From Naegleria gruberi (lineage: Eukaryota): DNA of 64,000 bases. The stretch lies in the NCBI GenBank assembly GCA_000004985.1, contig GG738883.1; one strand, 5' to 3'. A model generated the notes under the pieces. The model was not told the DNA's origin and ran no database searches. It worked only from the letters and a program-made list of their open reading frames with translations. The translations under genes and the position numbers were made by a program. Of the stretch, positions 17,201 through 55,683 are shown piece after piece. Each line of letters starts with the position of its first letter. Positions within the stretch are counted from its first letter, which is position 1.

Positions 17201-17429
17201 TTTACAAAGTTCAAACACAAATAGTCCAATCAATCTATTTGCTCAATTAATGAATAATCAAGAAAGAAACGAAAGAACTTCCCAAGGAAGTAGTCAATCA
17301 GGAGACATGACACCAATTACCTTGGAGATTAGTGAACCTTTAGAAGAGGATGCCAACTCACCAGTTCCTTCCTCCTTTACCATTGCAAAGAGATTATCTG
17401 ATTGTGATTTGGAAAGTTTGAATAAATAA
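14222..17429 (+). CDS. phosphoinositide-specific phospholipase C, delta-like (PH, EF-hands, X, Y, C2); join(14222..14759,14877..15255,15329..17429)
   Basis: Exon 3 has the PI-PLC X box ([58 protein letters not shown]...LILSLEVHC), the Y box ([32 protein letters not shown]) and a C2-like tail. Exon 2 encodes EF-hands ([15 protein letters not shown]; [13 protein letters not shown], which spans intron 2). Exon 1 is a PH-like N-terminus. Both introns have GTATGT donors (14760, 15256) and AG acceptors (14876, 15328). Phases close correctly (538+379+2101 nt). Confidence 0.85.
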
Positions 17430-24796: not shown

Positions 24797-24937
24797 CTGT
24801 TGATGTGAAAATTGCTGCTGTTTTTTTTTTGGTAAATCAGAGTTGACTTTCCTAATGTGGAACGGCCCGATTTTCATGCTGTTTTTTACAATGAATTCAC
24901 CCATATAGATAAAAATAATTATCGATTATCAATTGTT

Positions 24938-26019: not shown

Positions 26020-29000
26020 TCAAAAGTTTGGTAAAGTCAATCCCCAAACCACTGGAACCAACACACTAATCAAAATCCAATAAATGATCGTTAAGGGAAG
26101 ACCTACTTTAAAAAAGTCCAAAAATTTGTAATTTCCAACTCCCATCACCAACATATTCCCCGAAAATCCCAAAGGAAATGCAAAAACTGATTGAGATGCA
26201 TAAATTACACACATTACAAAACATCGAGCATTTAATCCATAGGATTGAGCTATGGACACAGCAATCGGAATGCAAATTGCAACAACAGCACTTCCAGTAA
26301 TAATGTGTGCAATGATGAGAGTGATGAAAGTTATGAATGCTGGAAGTAAAATGATTGGAACATTTGCCATTTTCAAAACTTGTGTGATTCCTTGTCCTAT
26401 TCCACTTTGAGTGATGGCAGTTCCAATGCCAATGGATGATCCAACCAATATTACTAGTCCCCAATCAACACTTTCTAATGCATCTGTTGGAGAAATCAAT
26501 CCAAACAAAATGATAACACAAAAAGTGACTAAACTACACTGAACCATTGGATAACCATATATGGCGCAACCAATCATGGCTGCAAAGAATAGGAAAATCC
26601 AATTTTCCCACCACCATAATCGAAATACCTTCTTAGTGAATGGAATTCTGAATTGGAATGGTCTTTGAATAAATTGATTGTCCGTAGGAGAAACTTCTGA
26701 AAATCTGGAAATCATGTAAAATTCTCGAGTGGAATTATGATGATTGGTGTAGAATCTGGGTTTTCCAATGACCAAAATGGTGTCTCCTGTGTTGACTTGG
26801 AAAGTTCTCAGATCGTTTTCAGCAGTTTCAGATTCCTTTTCCTCATAAAACATGTTTCGAATAGCTAGTACTGTAACTTGATATCTTAATTCGAAAATTT
26901 GATAAGTTTCACCAACACAAGGATTGGAATTGCCAATCACAACTTCAAAATATTCTAATTGACTTGTTTCTTCTACTACTGTCTCTTTGGATGTTTCTGC
27001 TTTGGAGCTTTCATTCTTCTTTGGATGATTTCTCTTCAGATTCGAATATAATTTTGTAATGATATCATTCTGATCACTTCCTCCACCAGATGAGATTGTA
27101 CTATTCTCATTTGAATCTTGACTTATTAAGGAAAGTTGTGAACCTCTCATTTGGGTAAACTCTTGAATTGATGGATTGATTGTTGACAATCGATATTCAT
27201 ATGGTTTAAGACTAACCTCCTTATACTCCTCAATCTCAAATACCATTGATTGGAGTTTCAAGATGGATTTGGGATTTCCTTTGAACATTAGAATATCATC
27301 CTTTTCAATGACAAGATCTTTTGGAACTGGTTTGATTCGTATGGTTTCTTCGGATGTGTCAGTTTCGATTTTTGCCATGTCTATTTCTATGGAAATAGTT
27401 TCTGCATTTGCAGGAGAGGTATTTTGAATAGATTCCATTTTCTTTTGAGTTTTGGTTTCCTCTACTTTCTTTTCACATTTTCTAATAACTTCCACAATTT
27501 CAATATTATCCAATTCTAAAACTTTCAGAATTTTTTCTTCATTTCTCCCCAACATGTTCATAAACAACATATAAGGTTTCGTATGATGCTTCTGAGATGA
27601 TAATTGATTCATTCTCACCACTGCAATAAACTCTTCCATTCTCTCTTTCGTCTTGTTTCTTAGTTTCTTTATCTTTTTAGCAAAATTCACATTAATTCTC
27701 TTCAACTTTTTGGATTCTCCCCTAATCTCATCTGGAACAATCCACAAACCATAGGTAATGAGATAGACAATCGTCACAACACACAAAATTCCTCCAACAT
27801 AAACAAACTCGTAAAATTCTAAAGCTCTATAACCATAACTGGTATACAATTCATTGGCCACAATATTAGGAGAATTTCCAATCGATGTCAAAAATCCACT
27901 TCCAGAAATAATGAAAGAAAGTGTCATTAAAAACTTTGAAGGTGAGACCTTATGTTGTCTAGCCCATTCCATTACAATTGGTAAACCTAAAACAACCACT
28001 GGTGTGTTGATTACAAAAGCACTTATCAAGGAAAACACCAAACAAATCCTCAATGTTGGAACTAGTAAGGATAAGTGTTGTAAAACCTTACTCTTTTCCA
28101 TGTTTTTGAATTTGATTGGAGAACCAAATAAGAGTTTTGAAAATTTCAAAACGAGTGAATTCTGAGTGACAGCTTTCACAATGGGAAATAGTAATGCAAT
28201 CACGAGTGTTCCACTACTTGCAAATCCACTGAGTGTCTGATCGAGAGTGAGAATTCCTGACAGATTGAAAATGACAATGGTAAAGAGAATAACGACATAG
28301 GGACGCCAAACTGTCAAGACCAAAAGTGTGAGCATGAGTAGGAGGAAAGCAACGACAACCCATAATTTCCATGAATTCCAAGCGAATGGTATTATTGGAG
28401 AAGAGGAAGAGCAAATGTTTGTAATTGGCTCTGATGTTTTGACATCTGAAATTAAAAGGGAAGAATTCAATAGTTTCAATGTTGAATAGGTATAATTGGA
28501 TTGTTTGATTTGGTTGAGCAATTGATTTGTATAATAATCCAAAGTGAATGTCTGGTTTAATACCACCAAATATGGCAATTCCATTCTAAGATGAGTAATA
28601 TTCAGCTGCAATGTGAACCACTGCATGTAATACTTATTCTTGTACAATTCTGAGATTTCAATGCTATCACTGACAAGAGAAACTTGATTTCCATTCAAAT
28701 TAAAAAACATTTTCTCATAATTCAAATCCAATCCATCATCGTTTCTCTTAGCTCTGTAATCGAAGAAATCCGAAGAAGGTAACAACAATTGTTTGGAGGT
28801 ATTACTATTCAAAATATTATTGTGAATTAATCGGAAATGTGAAAAAGTGAGTGTGGTGTTCAGGTTGGAAGAATTCATCACTTGTGAATCGGCTACTTTT
28901 GGGTAAATAATTTCCCATGCCAAAGTATTCTTTGTAGATGAAAACGATAGTGTTACAAAGCCAACTTTCTGTGTACTGTTTACATATTGATGCCTATCAT

Positions 29001-29259
29001 CACTCCACACCAGTTGATTTTTGGTAAATTGAGTTGAGAATTGGAACGCATTTAACTGTTCATTGATGAGCAGCGTTAAAATCAGCACAATGAGAAGTGA
29101 TGATGAACTCTCGAAAGTGAAAGAATGCGATCCTATCGATTTCATTCCTTTGCAAATCTTGTTGTTTTTTTCATCAGATAAAAACCCTATTAACATGGAC
29201 AATATTCGAAAATATACATTGTGTGGGTTTCCAATAAGAGGTGCAATCACTGATTCCAC
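26020..29259 (-). CDS. SLC13/DASS (ArsB-NhaD superfamily) anion permease with two internal TrkA-C-like domains and a large N-terminal ectodomain
   Basis: 1079-aa ORF. An N-terminal 330 aa with N-glycosylation-like sites precedes the first TM block. The central cytosolic region has two TrkA-C/RCK-C-like segments (IKPVPKDLVIEKDDILMFKGNPKS; FQVNTGDTILVIGKPRF). The C-terminal TM block has the ArsB/DASS pattern (GIGTAITQSGIGQGITQVLK...). Confidence 0.65.
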   Translation of the reverse strand: MESVIAPLIGNPHNVYFRILSMLIGFLSDEKNNKICKGMKSIGSHSFTFESSSSLLIVLILTLLINEQLNAFQFSTQFTKNQLVWSDDRHQYVNSTQKVGFVTLSFSSTKNTLAWEIIYPKVADSQVMNSSNLNTTLTFSHFRLIHNNILNSNTSKQLLLPSSDFFDYRAKRNDDGLDLNYEKMFFNLNGNQVSLVSDSIEISELYKNKYYMQWFTLQLNITHLRMELPYLVVLNQTFTLDYYTNQLLNQIKQSNYTYSTLKLLNSSLLISDVKTSEPITNICSSSSPIIPFAWNSWKLWVVVAFLLLMLTLLVLTVWRPYVVILFTIVIFNLSGILTLDQTLSGFASSGTLVIALLFPIVKAVTQNSLVLKFSKLLFGSPIKFKNMEKSKVLQHLSLLVPTLRICLVFSLISAFVINTPVVVLGLPIVMEWARQHKVSPSKFLMTLSFIISGSGFLTSIGNSPNIVANELYTSYGYRALEFYEFVYVGGILCVVTIVYLITYGLWIVPDEIRGESKKLKRINVNFAKKIKKLRNKTKERMEEFIAVVRMNQLSSQKHHTKPYMLFMNMLGRNEEKILKVLELDNIEIVEVIRKCEKKVEETKTQKKMESIQNTSPANAETISIEIDMAKIETDTSEETIRIKPVPKDLVIEKDDILMFKGNPKSILKLQSMVFEIEEYKEVSLKPYEYRLSTINPSIQEFTQMRGSQLSLISQDSNENSTISSGGGSDQNDIITKLYSNLKRNHPKKNESSKAETSKETVVEETSQLEYFEVVIGNSNPCVGETYQIFELRYQVTVLAIRNMFYEEKESETAENDLRTFQVNTGDTILVIGKPRFYTNHHNSTREFYMISRFSEVSPTDNQFIQRPFQFRIPFTKKVFRLWWWENWIFLFFAAMIGCAIYGYPMVQCSLVTFCVIILFGLISPTDALESVDWGLVILVGSSIGIGTAITQSGIGQGITQVLKMANVPIILLPAFITFITLIIAHIITGSAVVAICIPIAVSIAQSYGLNARCFVMCVIYASQSVFAFPLGFSGNMLVMGVGNYKFLDFFKVGLPLTIIYWILISVLVPVVWGLTLPNF

Positions 29260-30675: not shown

Positions 30676-32445
30676 TTAATTCAATTCTTGTTTTTTAAAT
30701 TTCATTCTCAGCTTGGGAATGTTAACACAACTGGCAATATCTAGAATGAAGGCAATGAGTAAAATGACACCAGATATGGTCATACTGACAATTAAACCAG
30801 TTTCATCGTATTCTTTCAACTTGGGAGAAGAATCGAATATTTCACAATTGGATCCAACCCACGAACCGAAACATGAACATTTTTCTGGTCCAACACATTT
30901 ACCTCTTCCCAAACAAACTTGACTTGAATTTGATAGAAAACCATTACAAGTTGTCAATTGGCAAACTATTCCAAAATATCCTTCACTGCAATTACAAGAA
31001 TTTAAAGTTTGACATTTGCCATTTCCACTGCAGACGAAACTTGAATTGAGTGATGAGATATTTTCACATGTTGGAATGCTGCAGTCAATTCCAAGGTATC
31101 CAGTTTCGCATTGACATTGATTGGGACCTATACAGTTACCATATGAACTGCAATTGTGAACTAGCCCACAATCAGGTGTTTCGCATAGTTGACCTTTCCA
31201 ACCAGAGTTACATTGACAAGTTTCGGTTGCAATACACTTTCCATTTCCACTACAAACTGATGAATTCGTGTATAGTGTACCATTACAGAAAATTGAAAGT
31301 GAGAGCTTTCGAATTCGATTATTACTCGAATCTGCAAAGTAAATTTCATCATTTTTCTTATCGTAAACTATTCCAGTTGGAAAGCTCAATAACGCCTGGG
31401 TTGCAATCTTGAAATCTCCATTAAAATTTAAAGTTCCCCAATTGACATTAATGGCGCCCATTCCAGCAATTGTTGAAATTGTTCCATTCGCTTGAATTTT
31501 TCTAATTCTTCCATTATACGAATCTGAAATAAACAAATCGCCACTTGGTGAAGTTGCCATAAAGTGAGGATTATTCAACTTTGCATTGATAGCTAGCCCT
31601 CCATCTCCACTCAATCCTCCATTCTTAATTACCATTCCAACTGGACCAATTCCACCTAAAGTTGTCAAAGTTCCATTTTCTAAACTAATTGACCGAATCT
31701 TGTTTGTGTAAATTTCAGCAATTCCTAAACTACCATCAACGAGACGAATAACACTACCAGGGCCACAAACTCTTGAATTCAATGCGATTGATCCATCTGC
31801 AGCAGAACCTTCAAGTCCATTACCATATATAGTAGTGATGGTGCCATTGGTTAGAATTTTTCTAATTCTATGATTCCACATATCACTAATGATGAGCTCT
31901 CCATTGGAAAGAGGAAGAATTCCAAGTGGCCAAGCTAACAAACTGTCAACTGCCAAAATATTGTCAGAATTAAAATTTAAACCTGGTGCTGTATTTGTTG
32001 CTCCCGTTCCAGCAATGGTCGAAACATTACCACTCTCTTTCCACATTTTCCTAATTCTATTATTGAAAGTATCAGAAATTATTAAATTCCCATCCGTTGG
32101 ATCAATTTTCACATCTTCAGGTTGACGAAACATGACTTGCATCGCATCCATCGAAAAATCTCCATTAAATCCTCTCACACCACTTCCTGCAATTGTTCTA
32201 ATCTTGTGACTTGTTAAATTCATCACACGAATTCTATCATTATAAGTGTCGGCAATGTACAACAATTCTCCATGAATTTCAAGACCGTATGGTTTGTTGA
32301 GAAAAACTTGGGTTGCTGGGATATTGTCTCCAATAATGTCAGAGCCACCACCTGCCACTGTTGTGATTGCGTATTGTTGTGGGAGGGCGAATTGGATTAG
32401 TGACATGCCAAATAATGACAAAATAAAAAGAATGGTAATTCTCAT
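30676..32445 (-). CDS. type I membrane protein with NHL-repeat beta-propeller and EGF-like repeats
   Basis: Signal peptide, then at least 6 NHL repeats (YIADTYNDRIRVMNL..., ISDTFNNRIRKMW..., ISDSYNGRIRKIQ..., FADSSNNRIRKLSL). Then four Cys-rich EGF-like modules (CSGNGKCIATETCQCNSGWKGQLCE...), a TM helix (VILLIAFILDIASCV) and a short basic tail. Confidence 0.75.
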   Translation of the reverse strand: MRITILFILSLFGMSLIQFALPQQYAITTVAGGGSDIIGDNIPATQVFLNKPYGLEIHGELLYIADTYNDRIRVMNLTSHKIRTIAGSGVRGFNGDFSMDAMQVMFRQPEDVKIDPTDGNLIISDTFNNRIRKMWKESGNVSTIAGTGATNTAPGLNFNSDNILAVDSLLAWPLGILPLSNGELIISDMWNHRIRKILTNGTITTIYGNGLEGSAADGSIALNSRVCGPGSVIRLVDGSLGIAEIYTNKIRSISLENGTLTTLGGIGPVGMVIKNGGLSGDGGLAINAKLNNPHFMATSPSGDLFISDSYNGRIRKIQANGTISTIAGMGAINVNWGTLNFNGDFKIATQALLSFPTGIVYDKKNDEIYFADSSNNRIRKLSLSIFCNGTLYTNSSVCSGNGKCIATETCQCNSGWKGQLCETPDCGLVHNCSSYGNCIGPNQCQCETGYLGIDCSIPTCENISSLNSSFVCSGNGKCQTLNSCNCSEGYFGIVCQLTTCNGFLSNSSQVCLGRGKCVGPEKCSCFGSWVGSNCEIFDSSPKLKEYDETGLIVSMTISGVILLIAFILDIASCVNIPKLRMKFKKQELN

Positions 32446-36043: not shown

Positions 36044-38263
36044 TTACTTACCATTTTGAGAGATTTCATTCTTGCCTTCTTGTGGAAGTAAATCGTGCAG
36101 TTTCTTCTTACAATCGAATGGCAATAATTTTGAGGAGAAGAGTGTCTCTATCACATGTTTAGGAATTAATGTTGAAAGTTTGGAATCTAGATTCTTGAGG
36201 ATATAGCTCGATACAATTCCACATACAAATTTCTCATGTTCCTTCCTTTCGAACTTTTCCATTAAATAGTAAATATAAATTGGGTTCAATATTTCTAATA
36301 TTTCAGAAATTGTTAAATCATCCACTAAATAAATACACAATTCGTGTAATAATTCCAATTCAAAAAAGGTCTTTTTTCTTAAAAAGGCAACCTTTCCCTC
36401 TTTTAAAAAATTGAAATATAAATCAAATATTTCAACAACGCCCTCATTCTTAATAGATGGAATAATTTCATTCGAAACTCCACTCAAATCAACTATCATC
36501 AGCCCATTCTGATTTCTTTCCACACTATTAATCCAATCTGAGCTTAACAAAGTTATGAAATAGTTTGATCTTTTCAGTAACTTTCCCTCACATTCAATTG
36601 AATCACTTTTAGATAATTTAATGAGGATTGTATCCTCAATTTGAATGTTTTCATGAGATTCACCTTCCTTAATATTATACGAATGTATCAATTTCATTAA
36701 ATTATCAAATGGAAATGGCATTAATTTGACATTTGGCTTTTCGATAATTGGTGATTTGACATGCTTTAACTTTTCTTGAAATAGTTCCAAGAAACTAGCT
36801 ATGGATTTTCTTTTGGAAAGGTTCATATTCTTTCCCATCCATTTCAATCCTTCAGAATAATTTAGTTCGGTTCCTCTTCCTTGCCAATACATTGATGAAA
36901 TTTTCAATTGAGCATTTAAGTTTCCTTGCTTGGCTGCTTTCAAATAGTATTCGAAAGCTTTAGAATCACTCTGTTCGATTCCTTTTCCTTTCAGATACAT
37001 TAGTCCAAGCTCAAAATGTGCTGTTGAATTTCCTTCCTCAGCTGCTTTTGAATACCATTTAAAAGCTTGTGAATAATCCTTATTGCACCCCTCTCCAGAG
37101 AAATACATATTCCCTAAGAGGACCATTGCCTCAGTCTCATTTTGGTTTGCAGATTTCAAAACCAATTCGAAAGCTTTCGAATAATCTTTTTCTACACCTT
37201 TTCCAAGAACAATCATTGATCCAGCAGCAAGTTGAGACTTTGCATCCCCTTGCTCAGCTGCTCTCAAATACCATTTCAAAGCTTTCGAATAGTCACCATT
37301 CGAATGATAAATCTTTCCACATACATTTTGAGAGGTCACGTCACCTAGCTCTGCAGCTTTCAGATACCATTCCATAGCTTTAGAAACATCTTTTTCAACT
37401 CCATGTCCAAAATAATATATACTTCCAATATCATATTGAATTGACAAAAGTTTTGGAACTCTTCCATGAGATTCAGCTTTTAAAAGCCATTCTAAAGTTT
37501 TGGAATAATCTTGTGGTACAGATTGTCCATAAAAATGCATGTAACCAATTTGAGCTTGTGATTCAAAACAACCCTTCTCTGCAGCTTTCGTATACCATTC
37601 AAAAGCTTTCGTATAATCTGGTTCAACCCCTATTATTCCTTCATAATAAATATGCCCAATAGTACGTTGAGCTGCACAATGCCCTTTCTCAGCTGCTTGC
37701 AAAAAGAATTCCATAGCTTTCGAATAGTCTTGTTCTATTCCAACCCCTTTCAAATACATTGACCCAATCTGGAATAGACCTGCCTGTGCAGTTTTCATAT
37801 ACCATTCGAAAGCTTTCGAATAATCAATCTCTGTATTAGCTCGATTATGATAAAACTCTCCAATCTTTTTCATTGCCAACAAGTGATTATCCCTAATCGA
37901 TGCAATACAAAAATCCAAATTACTAAATTCTTCCGCCAATAAGTAAACATAAAATTTCCAAATATTTTCTTCACACTTTTCATTTTCTGCATTTTTTAAA
38001 ATTTCTTCCAAATATTTTGCATAATCAATAAATTCACAATCTTCATTTTCTATTGTTGATCTATCTTCTTGATAATTATTGTTACGAATTAATTTAATTG
38101 TTTTTAAATTTTCCAAAACTTGATGAAATTTAGAATTGTTCCATCCGATTAAAAGTGAAATGTCATCGGTGGGTTCTTCTTCTTTTTGGTGGTGATTAAT
38201 GGTCTTCTTCTTCTTCTTGTTTGATTTCTGGCCAGATTTTTGATCATGAGAACGTTTTTTCAT
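36044..38263 (-). CDS. Sel1-repeat (TPR-like) protein
   Basis: 739-aa ORF. Basic KKKKK N-terminus, then about 10 Sel1 repeats (DYSKAFEWYMKTAQAG...GIEQDYSKAMEFFLQAAEKGH...), then a roughly 250-aa C-terminal region. Confidence 0.75.
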   Translation of the reverse strand: MKKRSHDQKSGQKSNKKKKKTINHHQKEEEPTDDISLLIGWNNSKFHQVLENLKTIKLIRNNNYQEDRSTIENEDCEFIDYAKYLEEILKNAENEKCEENIWKFYVYLLAEEFSNLDFCIASIRDNHLLAMKKIGEFYHNRANTEIDYSKAFEWYMKTAQAGLFQIGSMYLKGVGIEQDYSKAMEFFLQAAEKGHCAAQRTIGHIYYEGIIGVEPDYTKAFEWYTKAAEKGCFESQAQIGYMHFYGQSVPQDYSKTLEWLLKAESHGRVPKLLSIQYDIGSIYYFGHGVEKDVSKAMEWYLKAAELGDVTSQNVCGKIYHSNGDYSKALKWYLRAAEQGDAKSQLAAGSMIVLGKGVEKDYSKAFELVLKSANQNETEAMVLLGNMYFSGEGCNKDYSQAFKWYSKAAEEGNSTAHFELGLMYLKGKGIEQSDSKAFEYYLKAAKQGNLNAQLKISSMYWQGRGTELNYSEGLKWMGKNMNLSKRKSIASFLELFQEKLKHVKSPIIEKPNVKLMPFPFDNLMKLIHSYNIKEGESHENIQIEDTILIKLSKSDSIECEGKLLKRSNYFITLLSSDWINSVERNQNGLMIVDLSGVSNEIIPSIKNEGVVEIFDLYFNFLKEGKVAFLRKKTFFELELLHELCIYLVDDLTISEILEILNPIYIYYLMEKFERKEHEKFVCGIVSSYILKNLDSKLSTLIPKHVIETLFSSKLLPFDCKKKLHDLLPQEGKNEISQNGK

Positions 38264-42634: not shown

Positions 42635-45028
42635 TTATTGATCCAAAACTTGAATGAGGACAGAGTTTGGTTTTTTCACAATTTCACCAATTTTCCACAA
42701 ATTCAAATTCTTTTCCTTGAACGAATTGACCAGCTTTTCTTCCTCATCAGGAGAAATGGTAAACAGCAAGCCACCACTTGTTTGAGCATCTGCCAAAATT
42801 AATTGTTCTTCCTTTGATAGAGTTGAGGCGAATTCAACGAATTGTTGAACATTTTCCAAATTAGTTTTGGTTCCTCCAGGAATAACAATTCTCATTAAGG
42901 ATAGACAAGAAGAATCCAAAAGAGGAATTTGCTTTGCATTCAATTGAGCTACCAAATCCTTATTTTCCTCACAGATTTCTCTACTTCCTTTCATAATTTC
43001 CTTCAAATGTCCTAGTAATCCAAAACCTGTCACATCAGTGCAAGAAGAGACAGATTTCATTTCTCTCAACACATACGAAGTATCTCTATTCAAAGTCTTC
43101 ATAGAATTGATTGCAGATTGAGCTGTTTCAGATTCATATGGAACATTACCCAATTTCATTGCAGATGTAATGACACCTGTTCCAATTCTCTTGGTGAGGA
43201 ATAATAAATCTCCTTCTTCACATCCAACATTTCTGAAAATCTTGTCAGGATGAATAATGCCATTTACACTCATGCCGAATTTAGGTTCCTCATCATCGAT
43301 GGAATGACCACCAACAATGGCAACTCCAGCTTCATTGGCTTTATCGATGGAACCTCTCAAGATTTCTTGGAGAATTTCGATTGGGAGAGTTCTGGATGGG
43401 AAGGCAACAACACTGAGAGCTGTTTGTGGTTTACCACCCATTGCATAGACATCACTTAAGGCATTAGCACAAGCAATAGCTCCAAAATCGTAAGGGTTGT
43501 CCACAATTGGAGCGAAAAAGTCAATGGTGCTTACAATAGCAACGTGATCATTGATTTTGTAAACTGCTGCATCGTCACAGGTTGAATTTCCAACCAGAAC
43601 TGAATTATTTTCTGGTTGTTTTGGCAATTTCTGTAAAATACTGTCTAGTAATCGAGAATTAATCTTACATCCACATCCCAATCCAGAAGCTAATTGAGTC
43701 AACTTGACATTATCTGCATTAACGTTCAATGAAACTTTCTTTGAGAAACAAACTCCGCTTGAAGATATTGAACTAGAACAAGATGAAGCAACTCCTGTAG
43801 CTCCTCCACCACATGGACCACAGGATGATGAGCCACTTCCGCCTCCAGAAGTTGCCATTGATGGAGCAGCTCCTTTTGATTTTAGCCCAAAGTGAATCGA
43901 ACGGTTTCCAACGACATTAAAGTGATTTCCCAACCAAGTATCTGAAAGAACTGAGGCAGTATTTCCACAAACTAGAACTGGTTTGTGGGCTTCAAATTTG
44001 TGAGTACCATCCAATTGGTAACTTTGTGGATAGCCCTTAATACTTCCCTTATAATAAGCAACTTGTCCATAATCTTCACATAATGGTTCAAAATCGAATA
44101 ACTTGAATAATCTGTATGTGGAAGTGAATGACGAGAGCTCTGAAAATAAATCTTGCATATCCTCCTCACCTTTTGGTGGTACCATCGATATGGAAATCAT
44201 TGAGGAACGACTCAATTCTCTTGGATCTTCAAATCCAGACTTTTTCACAAATCTAATAAAGTCATTAATGTACATGGCATGTGAAAACAAATTGATGAGA
44301 CTCTTTTGTGAAGGCGCAATCAAGGATCTGTGGACAGAGTTTTGCAAGACGGAAATTTGCAAATTGTCCAATCTTCTATCGGTATAAATATCCTGATAGT
44401 AAAATTCACCTCCCTTTTTAAGTAATCCAAATGAAAGCTCAAACATTTTTCTCTTCTCTCTCAATTGGAATCCAGGGAAATTACCAATCATTACATCAAA
44501 GGATTCTTTCTTCTCCAATTCCACTTTCAGCTCATGCTGTTTTCCTAAATAAGTAAAGTCAATTGGACTAAATGACAAGTCCTTCAACAATTCATCCATT
44601 ACCTTAATCAACTCTTCCTCGCTCTCCAAACCTCCCATTCTATACAACTTTTCTCTATTTTCACTCAGTACCAACAATGAAACTCTTCCATTTCTTCCAA
44701 CCATTTTCGAAGCCACCAAAACATCTCTCATTGCACTTGATAATAACAACTCATCATCACCATTCGCACACAACACACCAACATTAAGGTGATGATGATT
44801 ATCGAGAGTGGATGATCCCAATCCCAGTGGAATATTCATTCCGATCATTCCCTGTGAAGAAAATGCTGAGGATTGATCTAAAAGTTTGCTGAGGAATTTT
44901 CTTAAAGTTTCCGAATGTAGGGTTGATGATGAGGCAATTTGGGAAAGTTGATTGAGTAGTTGGACATGATCTCTGTGATGAGAGTTACTGGAAATGAAAT
45001 TAAGATTTAAGAATTCTATCATTTTCAT
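42635..45028 (-). CDS. bifunctional protein: N-terminal arsenite-methyltransferase (AS3MT/ArsM)-like domain fused to C-terminal selenophosphate synthetase (SelD/SPS, Cys form)
   Basis: The C-terminal 400 aa are unmistakably SPS (active site GLGCGCKIN; DDAAV; GGHSIDD; the AIR-synthase-like fold). The first Cys codon is TGT, not TGA-Sec. The N-terminal 380 aa align to the AS3MT core (SFDVMIGNFPGFQLREKRKMFELSFGLLKKGGEFYYQDIYTD versus FDVVISNCVINLV...VLKHGGELYFSDVYTS) and the AS3MT C-terminal region (YRLFKLFDFEPLCEDYGQVAYYKGS...). The SAM motif I appears degenerate. A Gly/Ser/Cys-rich linker joins the two domains. Confidence 0.85.
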   Translation of the reverse strand: MKMIEFLNLNFISSNSHHRDHVQLLNQLSQIASSSTLHSETLRKFLSKLLDQSSAFSSQGMIGMNIPLGLGSSTLDNHHHLNVGVLCANGDDELLLSSAMRDVLVASKMVGRNGRVSLLVLSENREKLYRMGGLESEEELIKVMDELLKDLSFSPIDFTYLGKQHELKVELEKKESFDVMIGNFPGFQLREKRKMFELSFGLLKKGGEFYYQDIYTDRRLDNLQISVLQNSVHRSLIAPSQKSLINLFSHAMYINDFIRFVKKSGFEDPRELSRSSMISISMVPPKGEEDMQDLFSELSSFTSTYRLFKLFDFEPLCEDYGQVAYYKGSIKGYPQSYQLDGTHKFEAHKPVLVCGNTASVLSDTWLGNHFNVVGNRSIHFGLKSKGAAPSMATSGGGSGSSSCGPCGGGATGVASSCSSSISSSGVCFSKKVSLNVNADNVKLTQLASGLGCGCKINSRLLDSILQKLPKQPENNSVLVGNSTCDDAAVYKINDHVAIVSTIDFFAPIVDNPYDFGAIACANALSDVYAMGGKPQTALSVVAFPSRTLPIEILQEILRGSIDKANEAGVAIVGGHSIDDEEPKFGMSVNGIIHPDKIFRNVGCEEGDLLFLTKRIGTGVITSAMKLGNVPYESETAQSAINSMKTLNRDTSYVLREMKSVSSCTDVTGFGLLGHLKEIMKGSREICEENKDLVAQLNAKQIPLLDSSCLSLMRIVIPGGTKTNLENVQQFVEFASTLSKEEQLILADAQTSGGLLFTISPDEEEKLVNSFKEKNLNLWKIGEIVKKPNSVLIQVLDQ

Positions 45029-50521: not shown

Positions 50522-51427
50522 ATGTTAACCACTCCAAATATCATTCCATCCAGCATTATCGTTCGGCTTTTTATTTTACTGTTTTTCCAATTTATTTTGA
50601 GTAATTTTATTGAAAGATTGTGGAATTTAATTTACACAAACGAAATGATGAGATCCACACTTTTCTACACCACAACAAATAATTTACTCATGGTTATCTT
50701 GTATGGATTATTTTGTGTGGTAGATAAAATGTCAAATCCTGATTGGCGTCTGAAGGGTCCTATAAAATCAAGTGTTGCTGACAGTAGCTTATATGGAGAT
50801 GCATGGTTATATTTTTGGAGAAATACTGGTTGTTCATGGACCATTGCCTCACTTTTAACATATTTGGAACATGGTGATTTGCATGGAGGTTTTACCATAC
50901 AAGGAATTGAATTTTCAAAATTTCCAAAACAAGCACCTGGATTTCCCAGATTTATTATGGAAATTTTGTTCATGTTGTTGTGTATTGACTTTTTCATGTA
51001 TTGGATGCATCGAGCTTATCATTGGGGATTTCTTTACAAGTACATTCACAGTGTTCACCATGAATATCATGAACCAATTTCGGTAAATGCTACTTCTGTG
51101 CATGTTGTCGAGATTATCAGCATGACCGTAGTAGTATTCATAGTCCCCAAGGTGCTCTATGAAATGATCGAGTTGCATCCATTATCTATTTATTGTATTT
51201 CCTTCATTACAACGGTGCATGTTGTTTTGGAACATTGTGGATATGATGATTATTTTGAGTGGTTGACGTTTGGAGTTATTCCAGTAAGCAAGATGCATTT
51301 TGTTCATCATCAATTATCGAGAGTTAATTATGGATTTTATTTTTATTTTTGGGATTGGTTGTTTGGGACTAAAATGTCATATGAGGAGATGGATAAATTA
51401 AGGCAAAAAGGAAAGAAGGAAAATTAA
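50522..51427 (+). CDS. fatty-acid hydroxylase superfamily enzyme, sterol C4-methyl oxidase (ERG25/SC4MOL)-like
   Basis: Histidine boxes HRAYHW, HSVHHEYHEP and HFVHHQLSRVNYG. Four TM helices. The spacing pattern fits ERG25. Confidence 0.75.
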   Translation: MLTTPNIIPSSIIVRLFILLFFQFILSNFIERLWNLIYTNEMMRSTLFYTTTNNLLMVILYGLFCVVDKMSNPDWRLKGPIKSSVADSSLYGDAWLYFWRNTGCSWTIASLLTYLEHGDLHGGFTIQGIEFSKFPKQAPGFPRFIMEILFMLLCIDFFMYWMHRAYHWGFLYKYIHSVHHEYHEPISVNATSVHVVEIISMTVVVFIVPKVLYEMIELHPLSIYCISFITTVHVVLEHCGYDDYFEWLTFGVIPVSKMHFVHHQLSRVNYGFYFYFWDWLFGTKMSYEEMDKLRQKGKKEN

Positions 51428-51965
51428 GAAGTTTTGATATGTTTTTTTATGGTGGAAAGTGATAATTCAGCAGAATTATTGGTAATTATTTGAAACATTT
51501 CATAATTAAATTGGAATATTATGACAATGTTACCAATTCGAAGGAATTATTGTCAGTCTTTGAGGCTGTTATTCAATAAGTATGACTTTATTTAATTATA
51601 AATGTATTTATTTAATTTGGGGAAATCATCTTGTGCATATCACTTTTCCATCACCCTCAAAATCTCTTTTCCTCATAAAAACCACACAACCACATCCACT
51701 CATTCACACGCTTTCCATCTCCACAAAAACCAAAATAGCAAGAGCTCAAATCTCCAAATTTACACATCAATTCCTTATTTTCCTTAGCAATTTGATTTTA
51801 AAAAATATTCTTCGAAAAAAATTAGCAATAAGGTGAGTAGAGACCCAATACGAGATTTTTACGCTTAATATTTTGTTTGCTTAAATATTTGTCATCATCA
51901 TCACAATGATCATTATAAATATATTTGATGGATGAAATATATATCGGATTAATGTGTTGGTTAGG

Positions 51966-52787
51966 ATGGACACTCAACAACAACAAATCACTGAAATGAT
52001 CAATGATCTAAATGATAAAAAGGCAGAAATTTCTGCCAAGGTTGAAAAGGTGCAAGAAAACATTCAAAAGGTTAACAATTTTATTGAGGATAATCAAGAA
52101 AATATTCAAAAGGGAATTGAAACAGCCAATAAGGTTGTTGATACTGTTAATACAGTTCTTGAAAAGAAGGAAGAAATTGAAAAGAAGTTAAATGATATGC
52201 AAGAAGATCTCAAGATTAAGGCAACCAATACTTTGAATGCAATCGGATTGAATATTGCTGGAAAGGTTGCAGAAAAGTACAAGTTGAAATCACTCCCAGA
52301 AATGATGAACAGCATTCAAAATATCATTCCACCTGCTGTCTTGTATGGTTCAGTGATGAGAAAGCCAATGTTGACTCAATTCGGAACAATGATTCCAGGT
52401 TTTTCAGTTCCTTTCGAAACTATTGAGCTCATCGCTAGTTATGCATTCCTTGGTTTGCTTCCATTTGCCTTGTTCGTCAGCTTTATGGCAACCCAACAAA
52501 AAGCTAAAGTTGATGATGAATTGGCAAAGAGCAATGGCTCAATCAGAAGACACAAAAAGATTGCCATGTTGATGAGTATTTTGAGAGCTTCTTTGTGTGG
52601 ATTGGCTTATACTTGTTATGAATTGTTTGTTGGTCAAGTTCCTACTGAAATGGTGTTTGTCAAGTCTTATTTGCCTTACATGGCTTTTGCTACATTCACT
52701 TCAATTACTGGATACGAATGGTTAGATGCAAAGATTGATGATCTTGCTTACAAGTATTTGCCATCCCTCGTCAAGAAGGAAGAATAA
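51966..52787 (+). CDS. coiled-coil protein with C-terminal TM segments, unknown function
   Basis: ATG at 51966. N-terminal heptad-rich region (QENIQKVNNFIEDNQENIQKGIE) and hydrophobic segments after residue 150. Confidence 0.4.
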   Translation: MDTQQQQITEMINDLNDKKAEISAKVEKVQENIQKVNNFIEDNQENIQKGIETANKVVDTVNTVLEKKEEIEKKLNDMQEDLKIKATNTLNAIGLNIAGKVAEKYKLKSLPEMMNSIQNIIPPAVLYGSVMRKPMLTQFGTMIPGFSVPFETIELIASYAFLGLLPFALFVSFMATQQKAKVDDELAKSNGSIRRHKKIAMLMSILRASLCGLAYTCYELFVGQVPTEMVFVKSYLPYMAFATFTSITGYEWLDAKIDDLAYKYLPSLVKKEE

Positions 52788-52874: not shown

Positions 52875-54729
52875 CTAATTTTGTAAACGTAAATGGTCAA
52901 TAATTCTGACCAATCTCAGTCTCACTCCAACCTTAGCAATTCCCATTTCCAGCAGAATTTGATTATGTAAACCCAAAAATGCTAAACCATCAATATCGTG
53001 ATGTTTGAATAATTCACCAACATTATGAGAAGGGAATGAAGAATCCAAAGTATCAATCCATTGAGCAACCCTAAAGGTATCCCAACTTTCAAAATCTCCT
53101 CTTCTGATATACAATTGCTCCTTAAGTTTATCCTTTTCAATTGGAACAAATCGAGCATATGGTGGTAAATTGGCATCATTAGAAGAATCAGGTGAGGAGG
53201 AAGTTGTCATTACTCTGTTTGGTTGTTGCATATATTGATTGTTGTTCATTATTGGAGTAGTGACATTATTGGTCTTGATATTTGGAAATCCATTATTATT
53301 CTGAATTGGTGATGGTTGAGAATTCATTCCATTGAAATAAGGTGATGAGGAAAAATAATTAGAGGATGAAGCGGAGGAGACTGCACGTTCTCTTTGAGGT
53401 GTCACAGTATTAGAGATAGATGGATTCATACCACCATTATTATTGTACATTTGGATATCACTACGATTTACATTAGGATATGGCTCAGATCTGTACTTTT
53501 GATAACTTGCTGATCTCTCTCGTGTTTGTAATGAGGCAGGTGAATTTTCTGGATTGGAAGTAGTACCTTGTTGATTGAAAGATGGTGTTACTGGTTGTTG
53601 TTGCTGTTGTTGTTGGAAAGTATAGTTTGTTGTAGGAGTTTGAGGAGTGGAATATTGCTCGCTTTGAGTATTATTCGTTGGGGAGGAAGGTTGTGGAGAG
53701 CCTGGTGCGTCATCTTTCTTTTTTCTTCCTTTTTGCTTTGGTTCATAATATTGACAATCAATTCCTCTCTTTCCACACTCGGAACATTTTGGTAATAATC
53801 TGTCACACTATATATTAATTAATAAGGGAATGAAATTGAAAACAAACCTTCTTGTGTCTCTTTCTACATGGAATACAAGCGATTGGATGATATTCACCAG
53901 AGTTGTTATCATTAATTGGTGAACTACTCTTCTTATGAGTTTGATATTCATGGAAGATGGTATGTGCAACTGTTTGTTGCTGTGAGGTTGTGGAAGATGT
54001 ACTTTGGACAGCTGATTGAGCAGTGTTGTTAACAACACTTGATGGCATGCCATTATTCATGACAGTATTTTGAGATGTTGGTGGTATTTGTTGATACAAT
54101 TGTTGTTGCTGATGGACATTACCTTGTTGTTGAACATTCTCCATGTTATTATATTGAGGTGGAGGATTTTGCATAACCTGTTGTTGTGGATTGTTATTTG
54201 TTTGTTGTGGATTTGGGGCATAACCTTCAATGGTATTATTGTTACCAGGCATGCCATACGAAGGGCCACTAGTCGAATTCAAAGAAGGTAAAGCATTATT
54301 CATTGGTTGTTGACTTGGATATTGATGGTGAGCATAGGAACCATAGTATGGTGGTGGTTGTTGATGGTGATGAATTGGAGGATAATATCCACCATGTTGA
54401 CCATCTTGGTGAGGAGGTGGAATTCCATTACTAGATTGTTGATAATTTGGTGGAATTACATTAGGAGTTGGCATTGAATGATTCATCATATTATTAGATG
54501 ATGAAGTAGTGGTACTACTACTTGGTGTATTGTTATTATTATTGGTAGAGGACATTTGAACTTCTTCCTTATTCATCATCATTGGTGGGATGACACCACT
54601 TGTCGGTTGTTGCTGTTGCTGTCCATTATTATTATTATTATTCAAATATTGATGATGATGGTTCGGATGATGATTCGATGTTGTCGTTGTAGGAGGCGAT
54701 AAATGCTCTTCTTTCACGTTCGCTAACAT
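52875..54729 (-). CDS. Zn2Cys6 (GAL4-type) zinc-cluster protein with C-terminal SAM domain; complement(join(52875..53807,53848..54729))
   Basis: Exon 1 ends ...ACIPCRKRHKK at an AAG|GTTTGT donor. A 40-nt intron (53808..53847) ends TATATAG. Exon 2 begins CDRLLPKCSECGKRGIDCQYYEP, completing a canonical C-x2-C-x6-C-x5-C-x2-C-x6-C cluster. Unspliced, the protein would end after VCFQFHSLIN. The C-terminus has a SAM domain (WDTFRVAQWIDTLD...IDGLAFLGLHNQILLEMGIAKVGVRLRLV). Long Q/N/P-rich linkers. Confidence 0.7.
53808..53847 (-). other. 40-nt spliceosomal micro-intron (GTTTGT...TAG) splitting the Zn2Cys6 motif
   Basis: Length is not a multiple of 3 and it contains an in-frame TAA. Removing it restores the zinc-cluster spacing. 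Confidence 0.65.
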
Positions 54730-55612: not shown

Positions 55613-55683
55613 TCGGGTGTGGTATAGTGGTAGCATTCCAGACTGTCACTCTGGCGACCCGGGTTCAATTCCAGGCACTCGAG
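55613..55683 (+). tRNA. tRNA-Asp (anticodon GUC)
   Basis: Cloverleaf built by hand. Acceptor TCGGGTG/CACTCGA (one G-U). D-arm GTATAGTGGTAG. Anticodon stem CCAGA/TCTGG with loop CTGTCAC. T-arm CCGGG-TTCAATT-CCAGG with one G-A mismatch. Discriminator G. T5 run 6 nt downstream (55689-55693) as a Pol III terminator. Confidence 0.65.

What the first reader, a model, noticed from the sequence alone, without database searches (positions are those of the whole stretch)
52875..54729. GAL4-type Zn2Cys6 cluster split by a 40-nt intron and fused to a SAM domain
A canonical six-Cys binuclear cluster (CIPCRKRHKK|CDRLLPKCSECGKRGIDCQY) appears only after a 40-nt intron is removed. Any ORF-based annotation would truncate the protein and miss both the DNA-binding domain and the C-terminal SAM domain. 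Zn2Cys6 factors are overwhelmingly fungal. A copy in this protist joined to a SAM oligomerisation module through long Q/N/P-rich linkers is an unusual architecture. It may represent a lineage-specific transcription-factor family.
Basis: seen in the sequence. Interest (0 to 1): 0.55.

Follow-up and report, generated by a model that had tools for sequence, protein, structure and literature searches.

The report
Annotated Naegleria zinc-cluster–SAM transcription factor gene
This is a real two-exon gene of the amoeba Naegleria gruberi for a fungal-style zinc-cluster DNA-binding protein with a C-terminal SAM domain, but the exact spliced protein is already in public databases and zinc-cluster factors are already known to be Naegleria's largest transcription-factor family, so it is a correct but ordinary finding.

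Summary
On the minus strand, exon 1 (54729..53848), a 40-nt GT..AG phase-0 intron (53847..53808) and exon 2 (53807..52875) give a 604-aa protein. It has a complete Zn2Cys6 cluster (Pfam Zn_clus, E 1.9e-9) and a C-terminal SAM domain (SAM_1 and SAM_2, both above their gathering scores).

I could not check RNA. Comparison supports the splice strongly:
- N. lovaniensis has a 79-nt intron at the same KK|CD junction.
- An 88%-identical metagenome relative has a 38-nt intron there.
- Another relative has one uninterrupted ORF encoding the contiguous cluster.

The window is Naegleria gruberi NEG-M. The spliced product is exactly XP_002674618.1 / D2VMQ9 (NAEGRDRAFT_70226, "predicted protein"), so the reference annotation already has this model. 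Only prokaryote-style ORF callers on metagenome contigs split the gene.

Published catalogues list 71-78 Zn-cluster proteins in N. gruberi and include the N. fowleri orthologue. The Zn_clus+SAM combination itself is rare. An exhaustive search found it only in this small heterolobosean family.

Likely mechanism (inferred): a nuclear DNA-binding factor that lacks a Gal4-type coiled coil and fungal middle-homology domain and self-associates through a SAM closest to polymerising SAMs.

Novelty: already known. Interest: low.

The parts
53848..54729 (-). Exon 1 (codons 1-294). The start ATG is at 54729..54727. The exon encodes the N/Q/P/S-rich N-terminal region and the first half of the Zn2Cys6 cluster (Cys285, Cys288), ending ...CRKRHKK.
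   Evidence: An in-frame stop lies 3 codons upstream of the ATG. The N-terminal VKEE motif is conserved in all orthologues. The product is an exact match to XP_002674618.1.
53808..53847 (-). Spliceosomal intron of 40 nt, GT..AG, phase 0, between Lys294 and Cys295. If retained it places an in-frame TAA at 53817..53815.
   Evidence: One search gives the sequence. The same junction carries a 79-nt intron in N. lovaniensis (L001 5111-5189) and a 38-nt intron in relative L003 (1865-1902). There is no intron in L002. The three lengths (40, 38, 79) are all non-multiples of 3.
52875..53807 (-). Exon 2 (codons 295-604 plus the stop TAA at 52877..52875). It encodes the second half of the Zn cluster, the basic patch, the S/N/P/Q-rich linker with two conserved motifs, and the SAM domain.
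   Evidence: Nucleotide identity to L003 by codon position is 0.83/0.85/0.64, which shows coding constraint in this frame. This includes the 119 codons upstream of the first internal ATG.
53899..54729 (-). N-terminal low-complexity region (aa 1-277): N 16%, Q 14%, P 12%, S 12%; only 5% charged residues. Presumed activation or low-complexity region (inferred).
   Evidence: composition. It is poorly conserved apart from the VKEE and IFHEY motifs.
53730..53880 (-). Zn2Cys6 binuclear cluster domain (aa 284-320, interrupted by the intron): CIPCRKRHKKCDRLLPKCSECGKRGIDC.
   Evidence: Pfam PF00172, 37.9 bits, E 1.9e-9. The closest solved chains are HAP1/CYP1, LAC9, PUT3 and GAL4. It is almost invariant in 5 orthologues.
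53712..53741 (-). Invariant basic patch PKQKGRKKKD (aa 317-326) directly after Cys6. Presumed nuclear localisation signal or DNA-backbone contact (inferred).
   Evidence: Invariant columns E316-D326. It is also present in the distant member P0005 (EPKQKGRKKQK) and, in similar form, in heterolobosean paralogues.
53475..53522 (-). Conserved linker motif RERSAS-YQK-YRSEPYP (aa 390-405). [YF]R.EPYP is invariant in all six family members. RERSAS fits the basophilic-kinase pattern RxRxx[ST].
53364..53393 (-). Conserved linker motif RERAVSSASS (aa 433-442). It fits RxRxx[ST] and is a candidate phosphorylation site (inferred).
   Evidence: Invariant R433, R435, A436, S438-S441; pattern match.
52878..53150 (-). 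Conserved pre-SAM segment FVPIEK..L (from aa 514) plus the SAM domain (Pfam aa 535-601 = 52887..53087), running to the C-terminus.
   Evidence: Pfam SAM_1 25.3 bits and SAM_2 23.8 bits in the full protein; 30.1 and 28.6 bits when scanned alone. The closest solved chains are Scm SAM (1pk3, E 1.4e-6), Shank3 and DGK-delta SAMs. The AF2 model is all-helical but of low confidence.

Best explanation
This is the two-exon Naegleria gruberi gene NAEGRDRAFT_70226. A 40-nt spliceosomal intron sits inside the coding sequence of a Zn2Cys6 binuclear cluster. Splicing yields a 604-aa protein laid out as follows: an N/Q/P-rich N-terminal region, a Gal4-type Zn2Cys6 DNA-binding domain, an invariant basic patch, a disordered S/N/P/Q-rich linker with two conserved short motifs, and a C-terminal SAM domain.

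Shown here:
- the gene structure
- both domains
- conservation of the architecture in N. fowleri, N. lovaniensis and three metagenomic relatives
- absence of the fungal middle-homology domain
- a proline-rich sequence immediately after the cluster where a coiled coil would be expected

Inferred:
- The protein is a nuclear, sequence-specific transcription factor.
- Its Zn cluster reads short DNA half-sites. Specificity may differ from CGG, because His replaces the base-contacting Lys of Gal4.
- It is brought into dimers or higher oligomers by head-to-tail self-association of the SAM domain, not by the coiled coil that fungal Zn-cluster factors use. This would give cooperative binding to repeated sites.
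- The low-complexity N-terminus serves as the effector region, and the conserved RxRxxS motifs are regulatory phosphorylation sites.
For: Gene structure:
- Searches give the sequence, the frame and the GT..AG ends.
- The intron sits at the identical KK|CD junction in N. lovaniensis (79 nt) and in L003 (38 nt). Flanking exon sequence is 51/60 and 56/60 identical, while the introns differ in length and match in only 26 of 42 aligned columns.
- Orthologue P0001 is intronless and is one uninterrupted ORF on L002.
- The annotated N. lovaniensis model equals my splice.
- The spliced window product is identical to XP_002674618.1 / D2VMQ9.
- Third-codon-position divergence is enriched in both exons.

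Domains:
- Pfam Zn_clus, SAM_1 and SAM_2 all score above their curated cut-offs.
- PDB relatives of the cluster are HAP1, LAC9, PUT3 and GAL4.
- PDB relatives of the SAM are Scm, Shank3, DGK-delta, L3MBTL3, BicC1 and SARM1. To my knowledge these are mostly self-associating SAMs.

Architecture:
- It is conserved across five orthologues and a shorter sixth member, P0005.
- No Fungal_trans or other Pfam domain appears at E<=1.
- After Cys6, no Pro/Gly-free stretch is longer than 18 residues, which argues against a coiled coil.

Transcription-factor context: the N. fowleri orthologue is listed in the published Naegleria TF catalogue.
Against: - No RNA evidence for splicing or expression was available.
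- No DNA-binding, zinc-binding, localisation or oligomerisation data exist for this protein or any orthologue. No paper names the gene.
- The SAM scores in the full-length protein are only just above the Pfam cut-offs.
- The AlphaFold model of the SAM region was poor (pLDDT 62.7) and found no structural neighbour.
- SAM domains also act as heterotypic docking modules or stay monomeric (p63/p73), so polymerisation is not implied by sequence similarity alone.
- His at the Gal4 Lys18 position means canonical CGG recognition cannot be assumed.
Confidence: 0.6

Rival explanations
1. Same gene and domains, but the SAM domain is a heterotypic docking module and not a self-association module. It would recruit a SAM-only partner (as Mae caps Yan, or Scm binds Ph) or a signalling kinase (as the Ets-1 PNT domain docks ERK, or Ste11 pairs with Ste50). 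The factor would then be regulated by, or tethered to, another protein.
For: - Heteroloboseans encode proteins with a closely related C-terminal SAM and no Zn cluster. One is Willaertia magna KAL9645989.1 (P0017), with SAM HMM E 8e-21.
- CNK SAMs, which form heterodimers, are also among the PDB hits.
- Two invariant RxRxxS motifs in the linker suggest kinase input.
Against: The best PDB matches are homopolymerising SAMs. No partner has been identified in N. gruberi itself. The two modes are not mutually exclusive.
Confidence: 0.25
2. The protein is not a gene-specific transcription factor. Its Zn cluster would serve as a DNA or chromatin anchor inside a larger complex, as in the Zn-cluster subunits RSC3/RSC30 of the RSC remodeller or Cep3 of the CBF3 kinetochore complex. 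The SAM would mediate assembly of the complex, in the manner of a Polycomb-group protein.
For: RSC3, RSC30 and Cep3 appear among the PDB sequence matches of the cluster. The closest SAM is that of the Polycomb-group protein Scm.
Against: - Those matches are weaker than the matches to HAP1, LAC9 and PUT3.
- There is no similarity outside the 40-residue cluster.
- The protein belongs to a 56-78-member expanded family, which is typical of gene-specific regulators.
Confidence: 0.07
3. Retention of the intron is a regulated outcome. The unspliced mRNA would give a 304-aa protein consisting of the Q/N-rich region plus a broken half-cluster, or would be degraded. The tiny intron inside the DNA-binding domain would then work as an on/off switch.
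For: In all three intron-bearing species, retention truncates or frame-shifts the protein inside the Zn cluster. The intron position is conserved across deep Naegleria lineages.
Against: One lineage has dispensed with the intron entirely. The intron sequence is not conserved, so no regulatory element is evident. There are no RNA data.
Confidence: 0.05
4. There is no splicing. The locus is two separate ORFs or a decaying pseudogene, and the complete cluster is a coincidence of juxtaposition.
Against: - Both halves, and everything downstream, are conserved in frame across five relatives with excess third-position change.
- Introns of different lengths sit at the identical junction, and there is an intronless orthologue.
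- The N. lovaniensis and N. gruberi annotations and the published N. fowleri TF table all give a contiguous cluster.
Confidence: 0.02

Closest known systems
The gene's own database record: N. gruberi NAEGRDRAFT_70226 (EFC41874.1 / XP_002674618.1 / UniProt D2VMQ9), annotated as 'predicted protein'
   Same: It is identical over all 604 residues to the product obtained by removing the 40-nt intron.
   Different: Nothing in sequence. The record carries no functional name, and no paper in the searchable library mentions it.
Orthologues: N. lovaniensis C9374_005614 (P0003, 761 aa) and N. fowleri (P0002, 766 aa; Nfowleri986_g5488 / Nfowleri30863_g1534 in the TF table of Herman et al. 2021)
   Same: They share the architecture (Zn_clus, basic patch, YR.EPYP and RERA.SSAS motifs, FVPIEK plus SAM). 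N. lovaniensis has an intron at the same KK|CD junction.
   Different: They are only about 39% identical overall. They have longer low-complexity regions and a 79-nt intron where N. gruberi has 40 nt.
Fungal Gal4-type Zn2Cys6 transcription factors (Gal4, Hap1, Put3, Lac9, Ppr1)
   Same: The six-Cys spacing C-x2-C-x6-C-x6-C-x2-C-x6-C is the Gal4 spacing, and the Pro before Cys4 is kept; both come from my hand alignment to the recalled GAL4 sequence. The basic residues between Cys2 and Cys3 are shared. Pfam PF00172 scores well above its cut-off, and the best PDB hits are these proteins.
   Different: - No coiled-coil dimerisation element follows the cluster; the sequence there is proline-rich.
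- There is no Fungal_trans middle-homology region.
- His replaces the base-contacting Lys (Gal4 Lys18). This is shared by 84 of 151 clusters among the nearest relatives.
- The cluster is internal (residue 285) and not N-terminal.
- There is a C-terminal SAM domain.
The expanded heterolobosean Zn_clus family: 78 in N. gruberi, 56-58 in N. fowleri, and Willaertia magna paralogues such as KAL9656770.1
   Same: They share the cluster signature (F/Y)HPIAC..CR..H(K/R)(K/R)CD..LP.CS.C...G..C.Y..PK.KGR. None has a Fungal_trans domain. Scazzocchio 2014 noted that the Naegleria proteins have a variety of architectures.
   Different: None of the paralogues examined carries a SAM domain. The SAM fusion defines a small subfamily.
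Transcription regulators that oligomerise through SAM domains: ETS factors Yan/TEL (PNT-SAM), plant LEAFY, and Polycomb Scm/Ph
   Same: A DNA- or chromatin-binding module is combined with a SAM domain. The SAM here is closest in sequence to Scm SAM (E 1.4e-6). The proposed working principle, SAM-driven self-association enabling cooperative DNA occupancy, is the same. That principle comes from my own knowledge of those systems.
   Different: The DNA-binding domain is different (Zn2Cys6, not ETS, LEAFY or none). There is no homology outside the SAM. Polymerisation is untested here.

Membership tests
Zn2Cys6 binuclear cluster (Pfam PF00172, Gal4 type) | Six cysteines with spacing C-x2-C-x6-C-x5-12-C-x2-C-x6-9-C | tested here: met
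   Cys285, 288, 295, 302, 305 and 312 give spacing 2-6-6-2-6. This exists only after intron removal. By my hand alignment to the recalled GAL4 sequence it is the Gal4 spacing.
Zn2Cys6 binuclear cluster (Pfam PF00172, Gal4 type) | Profile score above the curated Pfam gathering threshold | tested here: met
   37.9 bits against a cut-off of 21, E 1.9e-9. The domain scanned alone scores 41.7 bits.
Zn2Cys6 binuclear cluster (Pfam PF00172, Gal4 type) | Base-contacting Lys at the fourth residue after Cys2 (Gal4 Lys18) | tested here: not met
   The residue is His292 (CRKRHKKC). It is invariant in the family and common among heterolobosean relatives (H in 84, K in 44 of 151 clusters). This residue is not a defining criterion in Pfam. 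It bears on DNA specificity, not on fold membership.
Zn2Cys6 binuclear cluster (Pfam PF00172, Gal4 type) | Binding of two zinc ions and of DNA | not testable with these tools
   This needs biochemistry.
Canonical fungal Zn-cluster transcription factor (Gal4/Ppr1/Put3 architecture) | Coiled-coil dimerisation element shortly after the cluster and linker | tested here: not met
   The sequence after Cys6 is YYEPKQKGRKKKDDAPGSPQPSSPT.... The longest Pro/Gly-free stretch in residues 313-510 is 18 aa. No dedicated coiled-coil predictor was run.
Canonical fungal Zn-cluster transcription factor (Gal4/Ppr1/Put3 architecture) | Fungal-specific transcription factor / middle homology domain (PF04082 or PF11951) | tested here: not met
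   There was no such Pfam hit at E<=1 in this protein, and none at E<=0.001 in ten nearest relatives.
SAM domain (Pfam PF00536 / PF07647) | Profile score above the curated gathering threshold | tested here: met
   SAM_1 scores 25.3 (cut-off 23) and SAM_2 scores 23.8 (cut-off 20.5) in the full protein. Scanned alone they score 30.1 and 28.6. phmmer against Scm SAM 1pk3 gives E 1.4e-6.
SAM domain (Pfam PF00536 / PF07647) | Compact five-helix bundle | tested here: inconclusive
   The AF2 model from a 5-sequence alignment is all-helical (H35-45, H54-60, H63-78, H85-100, plus a pre-SAM helix at 16-31). Its pLDDT is only 62.7, and Foldseek found no PDB match.
Polymerising SAM domains (Scm/Ph, TEL/Yan, Shank3, DGK-delta) | Head-to-tail self-association through mid-loop and end-helix surfaces | not testable with these tools
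   There is only sequence proximity to such SAMs. This needs SEC-MALS, AUC, EM or multimer modelling.
Spliceosomal intron | GT..AG ends, with removal restoring one open frame | tested here: met
Spliceosomal intron | Positional conservation with divergent sequence and length in orthologues, plus an intronless orthologue with a contiguous coding sequence | tested here: met
   Introns of 40, 38 and 79 nt sit at the same phase-0 junction. L002 is intronless.
Spliceosomal intron | Spliced junction observed in RNA | not testable with these tools
   No transcriptome data were accessible. The JGI, N. lovaniensis and N. fowleri gene models all imply splicing.

The most novel reading that the evidence does not exclude
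In this small Naegleria-clade subfamily, which includes the orthologue in the pathogen N. fowleri, a polymerising SAM domain has replaced the coiled coil as the assembly device of a Zn2Cys6 factor. The cluster also carries His in place of the canonical base-contacting Lys. Together these would give a mode of Zn-cluster DNA recognition not described in fungi: SAM-driven oligomers reading arrays of non-CGG half-sites. SAM-only paralogues might cap or modulate the polymer, in the manner of Mae and Yan.
Probability: 0.3. Interest if true: 0.4.

Novelty: already known. Interest (0 to 1): 0.15.

Why it matters
The practical value is small.

- The result confirms that the reference N. gruberi model is right.
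- It shows concretely that prokaryote-style ORF calling on environmental contigs breaks such genes. On L003 the DNA-binding domain was lost from the called proteins.

Biologically, Zn-cluster proteins are the largest transcription-factor family of Naegleria, yet none has been characterised (PMC5611559 asks what they are used for). This subfamily is conserved from N. gruberi to N. fowleri and is absent from animals. It offers an easily testable case: two small folded domains, a clear hypothesis of SAM-mediated assembly, and an altered base-contact residue. None of this is surprising to a specialist, and the gene and its family are already catalogued.

Tried and rejected
N. gruberi DNA and gene tables could therefore not be read. 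Identity was established through cluster look-ups instead.
- The word-indexed homologue search with the Zn-cluster segment found no candidate. With the SAM segment it found only one. The index is clearly not exhaustive for these low-complexity proteins, so I relied on the exhaustive HMMER search.
- The AlphaFold2 model of the SAM region from a 5-sequence alignment had low confidence (pLDDT 62.7). Foldseek against the PDB gave no meaningful hit. I did not use it as evidence.
- The JGI metagenome scan with the family alignment gave 79 pattern matches but no relative.
- A scan of the window for further Zn2Cys6 patterns found no paralogue in the window.
- Literature searches for the gene identifiers and for a Zn2Cys6-SAM fusion found nothing specific.
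- I considered that Willaertia magna P0007, which has an HRYQPYP motif, might be a mis-modelled orthologue hiding a SAM exon. I rejected this: no SAM-like sequence exists in any frame of its locus L005.
- I considered a Smaug/Vts1-type RNA-binding SAM and an ETS PNT domain. There was no such Pfam hit at E<=1.
Full report
**Observation**

The gene lies on the minus strand.
- Exon 1 runs 54729..53848 (882 nt). It opens with ATG three codons after an in-frame stop and ends ...HPIACIPCRKRHKK.
- The next 40 nt (53847..53808) read GTTTGTTTTCAATTTCATTCCCTTATTAATTAATATATAG. They have GT..AG ends, sit in phase 0 and are 1 mod 3 in length. Read through, they give the in-frame TAA at 53817..53815 that closes the 304-aa ORF.
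- Exon 2 (53807..52875, 933 nt with the stop) begins CDRLLPKCSECGKRGIDCQYYEPKQKGRKKKDD.
- Splicing gives a 604-aa protein with no internal stop.

Pfam finds Zn_clus at 284-320 (37.9 bits, cut-off 21, E 1.9e-9), SAM_1 at 535-601 (25.3 bits, cut-off 23) and SAM_2 (23.8 bits, cut-off 20.5). Nothing else appears at E<=1.

**Is the intron real?**

I had no RNA data, so I used comparison.

The first homologue search returned three full-length relatives: N. fowleri (766 aa), N. lovaniensis C9374_005614 (761 aa) and a metagenomic protein, P0001 (613 aa). All have a contiguous cluster CIPCRKRHKKCDR.LP.CSEC. A SAM-region search found P0004, an 88%-identical ORF fragment.

Reading the DNA of these loci showed the following.
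- N. lovaniensis has one 79-nt GT..AG intron at exactly the same KK|CD junction. Splicing it reproduces the annotated protein exactly.
- Contig L003, the close relative, has a 38-nt GT..AG intron at the same junction.
- Contig L002 encodes P0001 as one uninterrupted ORF.

The three intron lengths (40, 38, 79) are all non-multiples of three, so each must be removed to keep the frame.

Between the window and L003:
- The 60 nt on either side of the junction are 51/60 and 56/60 identical. The introns differ in length and match in only 26 of 42 aligned columns.
- Identity by codon position is 0.83/0.85/0.64 in exon 2 and 0.71/0.75/0.50 in exon 1. This is the signature of coding constraint in the proposed frame.
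- The constraint includes the 119 codons of exon 2 that lie upstream of the first internal ATG, which an ORF finder would drop.

I built a neighbour-joining tree on 262 gap-free columns with the distant member P0005 as outgroup.
- It places the intronless P0001 with the N. gruberi clade in 77% of bootstraps.
- P0001 falls outside all intron-bearing sequences in only 3.4% of bootstraps.
- The intron is therefore probably ancestral to Naegleria and was precisely lost once. This is a weak inference from a single gene.

N. gruberi introns average 203 bp. A 30-bp minimum was judged appropriate for N. fowleri (PMC8296547). A 40-nt intron is short but not anomalous.

**Whose genome, and is it annotated?**

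Four window ORFs are exact matches to N. gruberi NEG-M proteins on a 371,401-nt scaffold. One of them is the C-4 sterol methyl oxidase XP_002674519.1 at 50522..51427.

The spliced 604-aa product is itself an exact match to EFC41874.1 / XP_002674618.1 / UniProt D2VMQ9 (NAEGRDRAFT_70226, "predicted protein"). The reference annotation therefore already uses precisely this intron.

On L003 the caller produced a 391-aa ORF that runs through the intron into the wrong frame, plus a separate 169-aa SAM ORF. A 191-aa ENA fragment clusters with the N. gruberi protein.

**What is already known**

- Scazzocchio (2014, PMC5611559) reported 71 Zn binuclear cluster proteins in N. gruberi. [quoted passage not shown]
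- Herman et al. (2021, PMC8296547, Table S3) list Zn_clus as the largest Naegleria TF family: 78 in N. gruberi and 56-58 in N. fowleri.
- The N. fowleri orthologues of this gene (Nfowleri986_g5488, Nfowleri30863_g1534) are in that table with the contiguous cluster.
- Shelest (2017, PMC5415576) also notes the patchy non-fungal distribution.
- No paper in the library names this gene or describes a Zn2Cys6-SAM fusion.

**How unusual is the architecture?**

I searched a profile of the three full-length relatives exhaustively against 1.84 billion representative proteins. It gave 364 hits at E<=1e-3 but only four at E<=1e-30.

Re-scoring the top 150 with separate Zn and SAM HMMs showed both domains only in P0001, P0002, P0003 and P0005. 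Pfam confirmed P0005. P0005 is a 317-aa intronless short form from the same metagenome as P0001. It keeps the cluster, the EPKQKGRKK patch, an FRVEPYP motif and the SAM.

The next-best Zn hits are SAM-less paralogues. They come from N. gruberi (for example NAEGRDRAFT_80888) and Willaertia magna, and one is from the oxymonad Streblomastix. None has a Fungal_trans domain.

These relatives share a signature, (F/Y)HPIAC..CR..H(K/R)(K/R)CD..LP.CS.C. His sits at the position of Gal4's base-contacting Lys18 in 84 of 151 clusters.

The fusion is thus a genuine, rare, lineage-restricted subfamily inside a well-known expansion. No further Zn2Cys6 pattern lies in the window.

**Anatomy and likely mechanism**

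Conserved blocks across the five orthologues:
- N-terminal VKEE
- IFHEY
- the near-invariant G(D/E)(Y/F)HPIA-cluster-YEPKQKGRKKKD block
- (S)xS..Y.QKYR.EPYP
- R(E/D)RA.SSAS
- RF(V/I)PIEK..L followed by the SAM

The remainder is N/Q/P/S/T-rich: 73% QNPSTHG in residues 1-277 and 69% in residues 327-510.

Comparison with solved structures and with the fungal architecture:
- The cluster is closest to HAP1, LAC9, PUT3 and GAL4.
- The SAM is closest to Scm (E 1.4e-6), then Shank3, DGK-delta, L3MBTL3, BicC1 and SARM1. From my own knowledge, most of these self-associate head to tail.
- Unlike fungal factors, there is no plausible coiled coil after the cluster. The sequence there is proline-rich, and the longest Pro/Gly-free stretch is 18 aa.
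- There is no middle-homology domain.

My best explanation is a nuclear DNA-binding factor with these features:
- Zn clusters are brought together by SAM self-association and not by a coiled coil.
- The basic patch acts as a nuclear localisation signal or a DNA-backbone contact.
- The low-complexity N-terminus is the effector region.
- The two invariant RxRxxS motifs are kinase inputs.

Only the anatomy is shown. DNA binding, oligomerisation and regulation are inferred.

The main rival is that the SAM docks a partner, such as a SAM-only protein like W. magna P0017 or a kinase. I also considered a role in a chromatin complex, regulated intron retention, and the absence of splicing. I rate each of these as unlikely.

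**Dead ends**

- The AF2 model of the SAM region was poor, and Foldseek found nothing.
- A JGI metagenome scan found no further relatives.
- Several index look-ups failed.
- The W. magna paralogue P0007 is not a hidden orthologue.

**Verdict**

The gene model, its orthologues and the Naegleria Zn-cluster expansion are already public, so this is an already known feature of low interest. The one modestly new angle is mechanistic and untested: SAM in place of the coiled coil, and His in place of the base-contacting Lys.

Noticed in passing
window 55613..55683 (+): A tRNA-Asp (anticodon GTC) gene lies in the 1.8-kb stretch without long ORFs between the start of the Zn2Cys6-SAM gene (54729) and the next long ORF (56553). 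Rfam scores it at 49.4 bits, and ARAGORN agrees.
   Followed up: partly
window 51954..52787 (+) versus 52875 (-): The convergent neighbouring ORF ends only 87 nt from the stop codon of the Zn2Cys6-SAM gene. The two 3' UTRs must therefore be very short or overlap. The ORF starts at a GTG after a stop, so its true start is probably in an upstream exon. The same neighbour sits in the same relative position on the related contig L003 (2903..3658, minus strand).
   Followed up: no
L003 1067..2817 (ENA ERZ27245887 k141_1163587): In an 88%-identical Naegleria-like metagenome contig, the prokaryote-type gene caller split the orthologue into two ORFs. One is 391 aa and reads through the 38-nt intron into the wrong frame. 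The other is a 169-aa SAM fragment. This is a concrete case of eukaryotic genes being broken in metagenome protein catalogues.
   Followed up: yes
L002 2555..4396 and L004 2755..3708 (both ENA ERZ27315067): Two intronless family members come from one metagenome. One is a 613-aa orthologue. The other is a 317-aa short form with no N-terminal low-complexity region in the called ORF. The source organisms are unknown; the contigs have 41% and 38% GC. A tree suggests that the 613-aa lineage lost the intron.
   Followed up: partly
L005 1748..2725 (Willaertia magna JBEGDK010000001.1, gene for KAL9658689.1): The annotated 309-aa model removes a 978-nt 'intron'. That segment is a multiple of three and is fully open in the same frame, because the frame is open from 941 to 2905. 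The intron may be an annotation artefact, and the real product may be about 635 aa.
   Followed up: partly
P0017 = W. magna KAL9645989.1, L006 3001..4170: This is a 389-aa single-exon protein with no Zn cluster. Its C-terminal SAM is the closest SAM outside the family (family SAM HMM E 8e-21). It is a candidate SAM partner or capper. I did not search for an N. gruberi counterpart.
   Followed up: no
Zn clusters of the top 150 relatives (proteins P0001-P0151): 84 of 151 clusters have His, not Lys, at the fourth residue after Cys2, which is the Gal4 Lys18 base contact. Most share an (F/Y)HPIA prefix and a PK.KGR suffix. One hit, Streblomastix strix KAA6398214.1, carries two identical clusters.
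   Followed up: partly
window 15390..17429 (+), 22898..24904 (-), 26020..29259 (-), 30676..32445 (-), 36044..38263 (-), 42635..45028 (-), 50522..51427 (+): Other long ORFs give ordinary eukaryotic Pfam hits. In coordinate order they are PI-PLC X/Y plus C2, UDP-glycosyltransferase, CitMHS transporter, NHL/EGF teneurin-like protein (XP_002674612.1), Sel1-repeat protein, AIR-synthase-related protein, and C-4 sterol methyl oxidase (XP_002674519.1).
   Followed up: no
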